A stretch of 64,000 nt of DNA, from the NCBI RefSeq assembly GCF_006345805.1, contig NC_043000.1, positions 22,940,001 to 23,004,000 on the forward strand, in the 5' to 3' direction. The notes under the pieces are model-generated. The model searched no databases and was not told where the DNA came from. It was given only the letters and a program-made list of their open reading frames with translations. Positions within the stretch are counted from its first letter, which is position 1. The number at the start of each line of letters is the position of its first letter. Positions 34,901 through 37,663 of this stretch are shown piece after piece. The position numbers and the translations under genes were made by a program. Source of the DNA: Octopus sinensis (lineage: Eukaryota).

Positions 34901-37663
34901 GAAGTAACTAATAAAAGAAGGCCTGAAGCCAACACCCACACCAGCTTGAATTCAATATCTTCGAAAAATAATTCACTATGTCACTGGATAAGCCAAATAA
35001 ATTTTTTAAAAATGCTGTAACTAGAAAAATGAATTTCTCAGTGAGCAACAACTGCAAAATATTAAAGTCACCTTCAATCTTGTGGATGGGATTCATGCAC
35101 TCTAACCGTTTACATGGGGATTTCTTTATATTTCCCTATGTCAGAAATGTGTGCAATAGTAATATAGCTGTTCTATTTTGGTCACTGGTGTAGACCAAGA
35201 GGGTTAATGGCTATGACATAGTTTTTCTATTATCTGTGAATGTTTCAATGGCAAGCTGGCAGAAACGTTGGCACGTCGGGCGAAATGTGTAGCTGTATTT
35301 CGTCTGTCGATACGTTCCGGGGTCAACTTTGCCTTTCATCCTTTCGGGGTCGATGTAGTAGACTTAGTCCCTTTGTTTGTCCCCTCTGTGTTTAGCTCCT
35401 TGTGGGCAATAAAGAAATATATATGTGTGTGTGTGTGTGTTTTTAGTTGGTTTGTGCTCTGGAGAAATATCAGTGACTTTGCAGTTTTGTGCACTATTCA
35501 ATATTTGTTTTCGATAAATTTTGTACTTATCCATATCTTGATCAGAGTGTGAAGAGTGAAAAATGGCTATAAGTTTTGGCTTGTCTACCTAGGAGCAGGG
35601 TAGGATTGTACCATCCTGGTCTAAGGATCTAGTCAGTTAATTTACCCTTTGCCTAGCCTATTTCCTTTAATAACACATTGCTTTTCTTCATAGCTATTCT
35701 GAAGTTTGTCTTGAATGTAATGCAAATATTTTCTTTGCTAATTGTTTCTGTCCTGATGGTGTTCGAGAATTGTTTTCAATTGGTCAGTGAACACCAGTCC
35801 ATTTTGTGTGTACCTTACATACAAGCTCTTTCTTCCTTGTGTTTGATACTGTTGTTATGGCTTAAATATTCCTCAACTCCGTCTTTTCCTGGTCATTTTA
35901 AGTAGTATTTCTTGATAGCAACTTGGTTGGTGCTCTCTCTTTCTGTAGTAAATATTTTCTATTTAAAGTTACCTGAATAACTTTGCATCAAAATTCAAAC
36001 AAGGGCAGTGCAGTTCAACAGAAATATAGTTACAGCTTGATATTCAGTTAATTACCTCTTAGTTATATCTGTTAAGAAACAGCTGTAGTGAAGAGTAGTT
36101 GCTGTTGTAGTATTCTTTAGTATAATAAGCATGTTTTCTGTGCTGGTATGTTGAAAGTGGTTTGGTCTTTCTTGCTTTTCAAAGGTGACTTCAATATTTT
36201 GCAGTTGTTGCTCACTTAGGAATTCATTTTTCTAGTTACAGCAATTTTTAATTTATTTAGCTTATCCAATGACTAATGAGGTTGAAGATAGCGAATTATT
36301 TTTCGAAGATATTGAATTCAAGCTGGTGTGGGTGTTGGCTTCAGGCCTTCCTTTATTAGTTACTTCTAAACTTTCTGGAATGTGTATTCTACAATAAATT
36401 TAATATTGACTACCTTTGTACATATATTTACATACATATACACACACACACACGCCTGTTATGACCCCATTTTGAAGAATTGTTTTAGTGTTAGTTTTTG
36501 CAAATGTTTCAACAGGATAATTCTTGCTATTAGTGTTGTCTCTGTCCTGTCACTAAATTTGTGAATTACTGCATGAAAGTTTTTCTCCAGCATTGCAAGT
36601 ACTTTGGTTGATGTTCTTTTTTTTTTAATTTAGGATCTTGTGGATGGGATTCATGCACTCTAACCGTTTACATGGGGATTTCTTTATATTTCCTTGTGTC
36701 AGAAATGTGTGCAATAGTAATATAGCTGTTCTATTTTGGTCACTGGTGTAGACCAAGAGGGTTAATGGCTATGACATTGTTTTTCTATTATCTGTGAATG
36801 TCTCAACTGGAGGTGCGGCACCTTCCAGTGACTGGTTACTTGTGTTTCATTCAGTTTATCACTATGCTTCTGTTCCTTACTCTGGGGTCTAGTCACCACC
36901 ATTTTTGCTTCTATAACAAAACACCTGACATAAGACTACCTTTCTTCCTCTCAAACACTTTCCTGTTCAGTTGAGGAAATTTTTTGTCGTGCATGTTAGT
37001 GACCTTGCCAGTGTCACAAAACGAAAAAGAGCACAGCATGGTTGGCAATGTGAAAGACATCCAGCCATAAAATCCATCCTAGCTTGCAAAGTGGATATCA
37101 AAAAGCTGATTTTCTGAAACAGTTGTAGAATTCATGATACTTAGTCTGAAAAGTGTTAAATGCATTGATTTCCCAATGTTAGTCAAACAAAGAGGGATTT
37201 TGGTTGATCTGTTTTGAAGATTACAGCTCGTATATTTCTTCTATTTATTGAAATTAAATCATGATTTATTTCTGCCTTTAGACCGTGATATGGGAGCTAG
37301 GCATCGTGCCAGGCCTTCAGCTATCCAAATCATTAGAGTGGAAACTGTGCCAGCCAAGAAATGCAGAAGAGCTTACATTAAGCAGTTCCATGTAAGTGAA
37401 ATTCGATTATTTATTTTGGTGGTGGGATGCATTCTAATCATTTGTTGGATGTGATATTTCTGTCTCAGAAGTGTGTGTGTGTAATCTACTTCAGCCTTTT
37501 GTGAGGATCTAGAGAATGAATAAATGGTTGTGGCAGCGCTTGACTTTTATGTTTGTCTTTTCTTTTGCAGAATGCCAAAATCCGCTTCCCATTGCCTCAT
37601 CGCGTGGAAAGGAACTTACAAAATCCTAAATTCACTACTAGGAGACCATACACCAATTTCTAA
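31778..37663 (+). CDS. RPL18A: 60S ribosomal protein L18a (eL20), complete, 5 coding exons, 176 aa
   Basis: Exons 31778-31795, 32380-32559, 34734-34863, 37282-37391, 37571-37663 = 531 nt. Peptide [15 protein letters not shown]...AKSRFWYF...[24 protein letters not shown]...[11 protein letters not shown]...[15 protein letters not shown]...RPYTNF*. Confidence 0.98.
32167..32298 (+). ncRNA. Box H/ACA snoRNA candidate, family 1 copy A (RPL18A intron 1)
   Basis: Hairpin GCAC...GTGC, H box ACAATA (32227-32232), hairpin TCAACCTGGT...ATTAGGTTGA, ACA (32293-32295) + 3 nt. About 132 nt, ending ~80 nt upstream of the 3' splice site. Confidence 0.8.
32380..32559 (+). CDS. RPL18A: RPL18A coding exon 2
   Basis: [15 protein letters not shown]...[12 protein letters not shown]; 180 nt. 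Confidence 0.97.
33338..33468 (+). ncRNA. Box H/ACA snoRNA candidate, family 1 copy B (RPL18A intron 2)
   Basis: Near-identical to 32167-32298; H box 33398-33403, ACA 33463-33465. Confidence 0.75.
34734..34863 (+). CDS. RPL18A: RPL18A coding exon 3
   Basis: [43 protein letters not shown]; 130 nt. Confidence 0.97.
34885..36381. repeat. Inverted repeat pair in RPL18A intron 3 (34885-35075 vs 36182-36381)
   Basis: ATTCCAGAAAGTTTAGAAGTAACTAATAAA...AAGTCACCTT is the reverse complement of AAGGTGACTT...TTTATTAGTTACTTCTAAACTTTCTGGAAT, with scattered mismatches and one ~13-nt indel. Confidence 0.9.
35095..35221 (+). ncRNA. Box H/ACA snoRNA candidate, family 2 copy A (RPL18A intron 3)
   Basis: Hairpin TGCAC..ACATGGGGA/TCCCTATGT..GTGCA, H box ATAGTA (35156-35161), hairpin ATAGCTGT..TTTTGGTC/GACCAAGA..ATGGCTAT, ACA (35216-35218). 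Confidence 0.8.
36653..36779 (+). ncRNA. Box H/ACA snoRNA candidate, family 2 copy B (RPL18A intron 3)
   Basis: Near-identical to 35095-35221; H box 36714-36719, ACA 36774-36776; both stem substitutions give G-U pairs. Confidence 0.8.
37282..37391 (+). CDS. RPL18A: RPL18A coding exon 4
   Basis: (Y)[36 protein letters not shown]; 110 nt. Confidence 0.97.
37571..37663 (+). CDS. RPL18A: RPL18A coding exon 5
   Basis: [36 protein letters not shown] 30 nt downstream. Confidence 0.96.
   Translation, partial: NAKIRFPLPHRVERNLQNPKFTTRRPYTNF

What the first reader, a model, noticed from the sequence alone, without database searches (positions are those of the whole stretch)
35077..36805. Second duplicated H/ACA snoRNA family: two copies in the same RPL18A intron
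Seen: ~170 bp duplicated at 35077-35247 and 36635-36805, with canonical H/ACA architecture. The only two differences inside the hairpins (TCCCTATGT vs TCCTTGTGT, opposite ACATGGGGA) both keep pairing through G-U, as expected under selection on structure. The 5' pocket (ACCGTTT / CAGA, 14 nt from the H box) is complementary to the conserved 28S segment ACAUCUG-U-C-AAACGGU (recalled metazoan consensus). I could not assign a target to the 3' pocket (TTCTA / GGGTT). Two snoRNAs in one intron departs from the vertebrate one-per-intron rule. Inference: release needs an internal cleavage or alternative splicing, or the intron yields a ~1.7-kb sno-lncRNA protected by an H/ACA RNP at each end.
Basis: partly seen in the sequence, partly recalled or inferred. 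Interest (0 to 1): 0.75.

Follow-up and report, generated by a model that had tools for sequence, protein, structure and literature searches.

The report
Twin intronic guide RNAs, hidden splitter
Two near-identical copies of a likely ribosome-modifying guide RNA sit in one intron of a ribosomal protein gene of what is likely an octopus, a layout already known from flies; a candidate mid-intron splice point between them, at the edge of a 195-base inverted repeat, would let each copy be released on its own.

Summary
The duplication is real: 172 nt at 35077-35248 and 36635-36806, 4 differences, both in RPL18A intron 3, with both left junctions in short-read contigs. Each copy folds as a box H/ACA RNA, and no Rfam family reaches its cut-off. 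The 5' pocket pairs 4+7 with this genome's own 28S around a helix-81 uridine (human U4180, unmodified in human); 6 of 5000 random pockets do as well. The 3' pocket has no significant target. Two H/ACA paralogues in one intron are common in Drosophila, so the 'rule broken' is ordinary for an invertebrate, and the sno-lncRNA is untested. (1) A single-copy inverted repeat (34880-35074 / 36182-36387) encloses copy 1; one RNA contig has 4-5 A>G changes in its right arm that four DNA runs lack. (2) An AG|GT site at 36184|36185 would split the intron into two one-snoRNA lariats; it is weak (AAG, no +5 G) and no such junction was seen. The scan noted similar layouts before on other DNA (RPS8 of this genome, checked here; a snail gene, unchecked). 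Verdict: new member of a known kind; release route open.

The parts
35095..35221 (+). Predicted mature H/ACA RNA, copy 1 (127 nt): H box 35156-35161, ACA 35216-35218
   Evidence: ends inferred from the ACA+3 rule
36653..36779 (+). Predicted mature H/ACA RNA, copy 2: H box 36714-36719, ACA 36774-36776; two G-U pairs in the 5' upper stem
35077..35248 (+). Duplicated block 1 (18 nt before and 27 nt after the predicted RNA)
36635..36806 (+). Duplicated block 2
35105..35145 (+). 5' pocket of copy 1: ACCGTTT (35105-35111) and CAGA (35142-35145); 11 Watson-Crick pairs around own 28S U5690 (helix 81 loop; human U4180, yeast U2633 by counting)
35170..35205 (+). 3' pocket of copy 1 (GTTCTA / GGGTT), 15 nt from ACA; no significant target; weak candidate own 28S U1349 = human Psi1664
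   Evidence: (109 of 300 shuffles do as well)
34880..35074 (+). Inverted repeat, left arm: starts 16 nt after the 5' splice site, ends 2 nt before block 1
36182..36387 (+). Inverted repeat, right arm; A>G in an RNA contig at 36259, 36311, 36320, 36321, 36343
36160..36190 (+). Pyrimidine tract plus AAG|GTGACT: candidate recursive (zero-length exon) splice site at 36184|36185
   Evidence: use not shown
35249..35420 (.). Fragment of a dispersed repeat (SINE-like; label inferred) directly behind block 1
   Evidence: 12 other matches in the window; very high depth
34864..37281 (+). RPL18A intron 3 (GT..AG, 2418 nt)
31778..37663 (+). RPL18A host gene, 176 aa; coding exons 31778-31795, 32380-32559, 34734-34863, 37282-37391, 37571-37663
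37427..37540 (+). Decayed third copy in intron 4 (no intact H or ACA box, no stable fold)
   Evidence: nhmmer E 0.45, alignment z 6.2, fold z +0.76
32167..32298 (+). 'First family' H/ACA copy in intron 1; 5' hairpin related to the finding
33338..33468 (+). 'First family' H/ACA copy in intron 2

Best explanation
Two near-identical copies of a likely box H/ACA guide RNA lie in intron 3 of RPL18A, are predicted to direct pseudouridine formation at one uridine in the helix-81 loop of 28S rRNA, and are likely released as two separate 127-base RNAs, most likely by two-step splicing at an AG|GT point between them. Shown: the duplication, the boxes, the fold, the rRNA complement, the inverted repeat and the AG|GT motif. 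Inferred: a recent local rearrangement placed a snoRNA block and an inverted copy of flanking DNA in the same intron. Dyskerin RNPs would load on each copy. Splicing exon 3 to AG 36184 would free a 1321-nt lariat with copy 1 and regenerate a GT donor, and a second step would free a 1097-nt lariat with copy 2; exonucleases would then trim each. Where the 195-bp stem forms first, it would hide the AG|GT, be edited by ADAR and leave one lariat with both copies. My odds: H/ACA guide 0.9; this target 0.8; two separate mature RNAs 0.7; the AG|GT as the route used 0.3, the largest single route.
For: Boxes and fold. Target: best site among 1887 uridines of own 18S/5.8S/28S, score 11 against 7 for the next; reached by 25 of 1000 shuffled guides and 6 of 5000 random intron pockets. 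Real duplication: X5 record 22 and X4 record 16 link copy-1 letters to the copy-1 left flank; X15 record 4 links copy-2 letters to the copy-2 left flank. RPL18A hosts an H/ACA RNA in human, mouse, chicken, zebrafish and platypus. Same-intron H/ACA paralogues are common in Drosophila. AG|GT at 36184 is the only AGGT with such a tract in the spacer and the best of 3 on the + strand; 2 sites with 16 or more pyrimidines occur in 128 kb, so 0.02-0.06 are expected in the 1431-nt spacer (thresholds set after seeing the site). A stronger CAG|GTGAGT lies 70 nt behind a C/D-like RNA in a multi-snoRNA stretch of RPS8 in this genome. Stem: -278 kcal/mol; A>G at 4 of 52 arm adenosines against 1 of 192 outside, p 0.008.
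Against: No discrete RNA, protein binding or pseudouridine was observed. The AG|GT is weak: A at -3 and C at +5 (the gene's intron-1 donor also has C at +5). It may be an accident of the inverted-repeat junction. No joint 34863-36185 is among the 15 of 28 joints shown, and contigs of X7 and X8 run unspliced across 36184. No such site lies between the two copies in L018 (one search lists acceptor-like AGs without GT). The target uridine is unmodified in human and not in the yeast table; the Drosophila guide names held near it are 3091a/b, 4 nt upstream by my counting. No orthologue was found, so there is no covariation. Two other 28S copies (L005, L006) have one G for A in the paired stretch, which leaves a U-G pair. 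One X5 haplotype of copy 2 has 3 changes in 6 nt of the 3' hairpin. The A>G signal rests on one contig with no DNA of the same animal; an X8 contig over 36311-36343 lacks it.
Confidence: 0.5

Rival explanations
1. Copy 2 is a redundant, slowly decaying spare, and the inverted repeat and AG|GT are accidental by-products of the rearrangement. Single guides arise when only one copy loads proteins and exonucleases run through the other, or by the same unknown cut that serves Drosophila clusters.
For: Birth and death of copies in this gene: relic in intron 4, first-family copies in introns 1 and 2. Copy 2 folds 2.8 kcal/mol worse and has an allele that breaks the GGG of its 3' pocket. The arms show no sign of constraint: 2 of 401 against 14 of 1448 variable sites, p 0.55. 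The left arm ends 2 nt from the duplication edge, as a single event would leave it. No long inverted repeat in the 7 other introns or intron parts tested.
Against: Both copies keep both boxes and an identical 5' pocket. An AG|GT with this tract is rare in the window.
Confidence: 0.25
2. One reading: the intron is removed whole, exonucleases stop at the two RNPs, and a 1685-nt H/ACA-ended sno-lncRNA (35095-36779, SLERT-like) accumulates.
For: Two snoRNAs in one intron yield sno-lncRNAs in mammals (PMC11028025, passages). The only intron-3 joint with GT..AG ends and exon-level depth removes the intron whole. The stem would hide the AG|GT.
Against: Known cases are mammalian. The spacer holds a dispersed-repeat piece, two microsatellites and a 62-nt deletion polymorphism (36094-36155 in X2, X3, X4), with no sign of conservation. 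Drosophila clusters give single RNAs (recalled, not from a call).
Confidence: 0.2
3. The 195-bp stem is itself the processing signal: an RNase III enzyme (Drosha-like) or an inosine-dependent nuclease cuts both arms, which opens the 5' side of copy 1 and cuts between the copies, as Rnt1 and Pac1 do for yeast snoRNA precursors.
For: The geometry fits: one arm before copy 1, one between the copies. A>G changes suggest that the stem forms. RNase III release is shown in yeasts and proposed for DROSHA at human SNHG25 (PMC12508059, passages).
Against: No cut site was seen. A 1.1-kb loop is unlike Drosha substrates, and editing tends to hinder RNase III cutting (both recalled). The repeat is unique to this locus and absent from the comparable intron of L018.
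Confidence: 0.12
4. One copy is an assembly artefact.
For: X4 record 16 joins the copy-1 left flank to the copy-2 right flank; X2 record 7 and X7 record 13 carry copy-1 letters in copy 2.
Against: These are expected paths through a repeat, and X4 also holds the spacer. Both left flanks run into the repeat in X2 and X3, stopping 30 nt inside (35106, 36664), and allele-flank links come from three studies other than the possible source sample (X4, X5, X15).
Confidence: 0.02

Closest known systems
Drosophila intronic clusters of H/ACA paralogues (e.g. Psi28S-3316a-e in dom, 3327a/b in RpS4, 3405a-d in Hrb98DE; PMC11028025 supplement rows, PMC3089462 passages)
   Same: Near-identical H/ACA copies in one intron of a host gene, by cis-duplication
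   Different: Copies are 1431 nt apart, with a long inverted repeat and an AG|GT between them; the target is not among the Drosophila names seen
SNORA68 / U68 (Rfam RF00263; human RPL18A, target 28S U4393; PMC3511933 table, PMC4092089 passages)
   Same: Same host gene; H/ACA class
   Different: No match to RF00263; other pockets; the U4393 position is C in all 3 own 28S copies read
SLERT and other sno-lncRNAs (PMC11028025 passages)
   Same: Two H/ACA units within one excised intron
   Different: SLERT needs exon skipping and joins two different snoRNAs; here the intron is constitutive and no long RNA is shown
Recursive splice sites (zero-length exons); fungal snoRNA 'complex introns'
   Same: Pyrimidine tract plus AG directly followed by GT, between two snoRNAs
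   Different: Weak consensus (AAG, +5 C), short intron, site overlaps a duplex arm, use not seen
Rnt1/Pac1 release of co-hosted snoRNAs (PMC12508059 passages)
   Same: A double-stranded stem placed where a cut would separate two snoRNAs
   Different: The stem is 195 bp with a 1.1-kb loop, recent and locus-specific; no enzyme or cut is shown

Membership tests
Box H/ACA snoRNA | Hairpin-hinge-hairpin-tail fold | tested here: met
   (z -3.21 and -2.19)
Box H/ACA snoRNA | H box ANANNA in the hinge; ACA after the second hairpin | tested here: met
   ATAGTA 35156/36714, ACA 35216/36774
Box H/ACA snoRNA | Bipartite pocket pairing around U-N, 14-16 nt from the box (distance rule recalled): 5' pocket | tested here: met
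   4+7 Watson-Crick pairs, 14 nt; 25 of 1000 and 6 of 5000 in two nulls
Box H/ACA snoRNA | Same, 3' pocket | tested here: inconclusive
   best site reached by 109 of 300 shuffles; rank 3-5 with the strict loop; snRNAs not searched
Box H/ACA snoRNA | Discrete RNA ending 3 nt after ACA, bound by dyskerin; target pseudouridylated | not testable with these tools
   only contigs were available
Box H/ACA snoRNA | Covariation across species | tested here: inconclusive
   no orthologue in 80 RPL18A loci (best E 1.2; best E 0.4 in 5 loci with filters off)
SNORA68 (RF00263) | Scores with the Rfam model | tested here: not met
   best Rfam hit is SNORA14, 21.5 bits against a cut-off of 36, E 0.12
SNORA68 (RF00263) | Pocket for 28S U4393 | tested here: not met
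   neither pocket of the two copies picks that site; the site is C here
SNORA68 (RF00263) | Intron of RPL18A | tested here: met
Drosophila-type intronic H/ACA cluster | Two or more H/ACA units in one intron | tested here: met
Drosophila-type intronic H/ACA cluster | Units mature as separate RNAs | not testable with these tools
   contigs show no RNA ends
sno-lncRNA (SLERT type) | Stable long RNA with a snoRNP at each end | not testable with these tools
   holds contigs only
Recursive splice site | Pyrimidine tract plus AG immediately followed by GT | tested here: met
Recursive splice site | Strong YAG|GTRAG consensus (recalled) | tested here: not met
   AAG|GTGACT
Recursive splice site | Exon-to-site junction or lariat in RNA | tested here: inconclusive
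   not among 15 of 28 joints shown; contigs drop rare forms

The most novel reading that the evidence does not exclude
The intron is a kinetic switch. If exon 3 is spliced to the AG at 36184 before the right arm is transcribed, two lariats form and two guide RNAs mature. If the 195-bp stem folds first, it buries the AG|GT, is edited by ADAR and yields a both-copy lariat (a sno-lncRNA or a nuclease substrate). Together with the RPS8 site, this would make recursive splicing the way octopuses keep one snoRNA per lariat in multi-snoRNA introns, here tuned by an edited duplex, for a helix-81 pseudouridine that human ribosomes lack.
Probability: 0.12. Interest if true: 0.75.

Novelty: new member of a known kind. 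Interest (0 to 1): 0.42.

Why it matters
How animals release several snoRNAs from one intron is not settled: PMC12508059 (passages) says the enzymes for co-hosted non-intronic snoRNAs are largely unknown outside budding yeast, and my search for the intronic-cluster mechanism returned nothing. This locus offers three separable routes in 2.4 kb (AG|GT, duplex, no cut), two diagnostic letters and a young age, so one minigene series could decide among them. It also predicts a pseudouridine in the helix-81 loop, next to the position where yeast has m3U2634 and 10 nt before human m6A4190, that human rRNA lacks. A solved ribosome with this exon-2 sequence exists (9EHO chain S). If the extras are accidents, it is one more unannotated invertebrate snoRNA pair.

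Tried and rejected
Rfam: nothing at gathering score in 64 kb; no H/ACA hit at E 10 over the gene; on short cut-outs only sub-threshold SNORA14, SNORA18 and ceN38; RF00263 gave 0 matches in the genome. The genome could not be searched with my covariance model, so distant paralogues elsewhere stay open (a DNA search gave only the two copies). Orthologue hunt: 80 RPL18A loci, of which 5 with animal-like exon patterns were examined closely; no significant hit. The L017 element shares ATGCAC...GTGCA ATAATA ends (z 4.3, but ends chosen by eye), and its best pocket points 16 nt upstream, 13 nt from the H box, with no null run: not called an orthologue. 3' pocket to human Psi1664 (GGG/CCC plus 5-6 pairs, one extra A): kept as a weak lead only. 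I first took that site for yeast Psi966 / human 1683; the human map shows Psi1664. The idea that the finding is SNORA68 was rejected (see membership). Cassette exon between the copies: only weak pairs 35949-36145/36184; the T-rich acceptor at 36633 is one of 6 such in the intron, so not special. Contig depth over copies, spacer and flanks cannot rank parts and was not used; lack of cover at copy 1 in X15 is no evidence. X16 holds only exon matches and was not used for introns. Constraint on the arms: not found. L003 and L012 rRNAs look like another organism and were left out of the target set. Huang et al. 2005 on Drosophila clusters is not held, so what it says on processing is recalled only. 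Not-in-print claims rest (25 of 5,446 listed, none on cephalopod snoRNA clusters by title), 60, 62, 68 and 78 and are weak; bioRxiv supplements could not be seen, and two supplements were cut when stored.
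Full report
Setting. The window is G000:C4:22940001-23004000 of a 2.72-Gb genome, likely an octopus: its 28S is 6.65 kb and its 18S 2.65 kb (such expansion as a cephalopod trait is recalled), and earlier notes on this genome say the same. The host is RPL18A, five coding exons, 176 aa. PF01775 matches 2 of 4 exons scanned, and exon 2 equals chain S of PDB 9EHO (the tool read the first codon as M). 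RNA contigs show all four introns removed; intron 3 (34864-37281) is removed whole in 3 of 4 runs, and the fourth has matching loose ends.

Observation. A 172-nt direct repeat lies at 35077-35248 and 36635-36806 with 4 differences and nowhere else in the genome. Short-read contigs support it. Both left flanks enter the repeat and stop 30 nt inside in X2 and X3, copy-1 letters are linked to the copy-1 flank in X4 and X5, and copy-2 letters to the copy-2 flank in X15. X2 may be the source sample. Against: one X4 contig joins the copy-1 left flank to the copy-2 right flank, and X2 and X7 contigs carry copy-1 letters in copy 2. These are most simply paths through a repeat, since X4 also holds the spacer; a deletion allele is not excluded.

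H/ACA anatomy. Each copy holds a 127-nt unit with two hairpins, an H box and an ACA; fold z is -3.21 and -2.19. Shape alone is common: 24 crude hits in 57.9 kb, 2 better than copy 1. No Rfam family reaches its cut-off. The two stem differences give G-U pairs, which two random transitions do about one time in four.

Targets. I took 18S, 5.8S and 28S from this genome (L013, L004). The 5' pocket has one clear best site, 28S U5690, with 4+7 Watson-Crick pairs and 14 nt to the H box; the next site scores 7 against 11. Shuffled guides reach it in 25 of 1000 trials and random intron pockets in 6 of 5000; two pockets were tested. In the human map this is U4180, unmodified, between Gm4166 and m6A4190 (PMC6182160 supplement passages). 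m6A4220, the same base in newer numbering, is in helix 81 (PMC11724314 passage). By counting from Gm2619 it is yeast U2633, beside m3U2634 of helix 81 and absent from the yeast table (PMC5699541 table; PMC3950682 passages). By the same counting it is Drosophila 3095; the names held nearby are Psi28S-3091a/b (file cut). Two other 28S copies have one A>G in the paired stretch. The 3' pocket has no significant target: its best site, U1349 = human Psi1664, is matched by 109 of 300 shuffles and ranks 3rd to 5th with the strict loop. One X5 contig of copy 2 changes two of its three G.

Family. With a model of the two copies, 4 of the 6 best other hits in the window are sense-strand in RPL18A introns (E 0.41-2.1, none significant alone). 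5' halves of the first-family copies and of a relic in intron 4 align to copy 1 with z 4.2, 3.8 and 4.5; 3' halves do not. So the gene shows birth and death of related guides. RPL18A hosts SNORA68 (target U4393) in human (PMC3511933 table) and an H/ACA RNA in four other vertebrates. The finding is not SNORA68. The U4393 context (PMC4092089 passage) has C for U in 3 of 3 own 28S copies read.

Two per intron. Animals 'predominantly' follow one per intron, and two in one intron can give sno-lncRNAs in mammals (PMC11028025, section 3 part 1 and passages). In Drosophila, H/ACA loci are generally clustered, while the silkworm follows one per intron (PMC3089462 passages); 17 of the 24 Psi28S rows shown, of 63, are intronic clusters. 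Cis-duplication is described in chicken (PMC2653536 passages) and target switching in Xenopus (PMC6984369 passages). Among 80 RPL18A loci, L018 has an H/ACA-shaped unit in intron 4 and 55 identical nt of a second copy, cut by the contig end. The layout is therefore ordinary for an invertebrate.

Missed feature 1, the inverted repeat. 34880-35074 pairs with 36182-36387: 8 mismatches and 3 gaps, -278 kcal/mol; 183 of 195 left-arm bases pair in the regional fold. It is single-copy in the genome, so it is not a dispersed element. Contigs of X2, X3 and X4 break at the mirror places 34945/6 and 36321/2. The left arm ends 2 nt before block 1, which suggests a single rearrangement. An X7 RNA contig (35456-36421) shows A>G at 36259, 36311, 36320, 36321 and 36343, and one outside at 35947 that X5 DNA also has (40 of 68 rows shown). 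Four of the five face T in the left arm, so they are not left-arm letters; 36259 faces C and is also in X8. DNA contigs of X2-X5 cover these places and list none. Counts: 5 of 53 arm adenosines against 1 of 192 outside, p 0.002; without 36259, p 0.008. None has a 5' G, as ADAR prefers (PMC9989829 passage). Against: it is one contig, there is no DNA of that animal, an X8 contig over 36311-36343 is unchanged, and the arms show no constraint (p 0.55).

Missed feature 2, the AG|GT. At 36184|36185 a 16-of-20 pyrimidine tract ends in AAG|GTGACT. It is the best of 3 such sites on the + strand; 0.02-0.06 are expected in the spacer, with thresholds chosen afterwards. Use would split the intron into 1321 nt with copy 1 and 1097 nt with copy 2, and would part the two arms. 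I checked the RPS8 lead: L103 has CAG|GTGAGT with 17 pyrimidines 70 nt behind a C/D-like RNA, with further C/D-like units and no exon visible by eye before 5683 (Rfam hits below cut-off). Against: weak consensus, possible accident of the junction, no matching joint among 15 of 28 shown, unspliced contigs across it, and none in L018.

Mechanism and verdict. Shown: sequence features and rRNA complement. Inferred: RNP assembly, pseudouridylation and release. I put two separate mature guides at 0.7, with two-step splicing the most likely single route (0.3), ahead of an accidental or unknown route (0.25), a sno-lncRNA as main product (0.2) and a cut in the stem (0.12; yeast precedent and a DROSHA proposal in PMC12508059 passages). 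It is a new member of a known kind, interest 0.42. The switch model has probability 0.12 and would deserve 0.75.

Noticed in passing
window 32167-32298 and 33338-33468: The first-family 3' pocket (GGTCGT / TGAAT, 14 nt from ACA) brackets the human U4393 (SNORA68) site, but this genome's 28S has C there in 3 of 3 copies: possibly a guide that lost its target. It is not among the top 4 sites in an any-base scan. Its 5' pocket fits the same U5690 with one mismatch.
   Followed up: partly
L018 1299-1424 and 1642-1696: H/ACA-shaped unit in RPL18A intron 4 of another animal, with a U4393-type 3' pocket (TGTCGC / TGAAT, 17 nt from ACA) and a 5' pocket that fits 28S 2495; a second copy starts in the same intron, with a strong acceptor-like AG at 1560 between them.
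   Followed up: partly
L017 1841-1961 and about 1370-1430: H/ACA-shaped element in RPL18A intron 3 with the same terminal stem as the finding, best pocket at the P-loop uridine (own 28S 5674, no null run); a C/D-shaped element upstream.
   Followed up: partly
L103 2945-5375 (RPS8 of this genome): Five C/D-like units in a stretch without a visible exon, a CAG|GTGAGT site at 4234 and an acceptor-TTG-donor (3-nt microexon-like) near 5370; three SNORD35-like copies at 173-1573.
   Followed up: partly
window 31766-32411: An X8 RNA contig retains intron 1, with the first-family copy, at depth about 100, far above other intron contigs.
   Followed up: no
window 36094-36155, 37168, 37546: Indel polymorphisms: a 62-nt deletion ending 29 nt before the AG|GT (X2, X3, X4), a 17-nt insertion (X7, X8) and an 18-nt insertion behind the intron-4 relic (X3, X4, X5).
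   Followed up: no
L003 (G000:C6303) and L012 (G000:C1618): Short 28S (40% GC) and short 18S genes unlike the long C18 copies: likely another organism in the assembly.
   Followed up: no
window 33998-34087: Weak model hit (E 1.9) in intron 2, possibly another relic.
   Followed up: no
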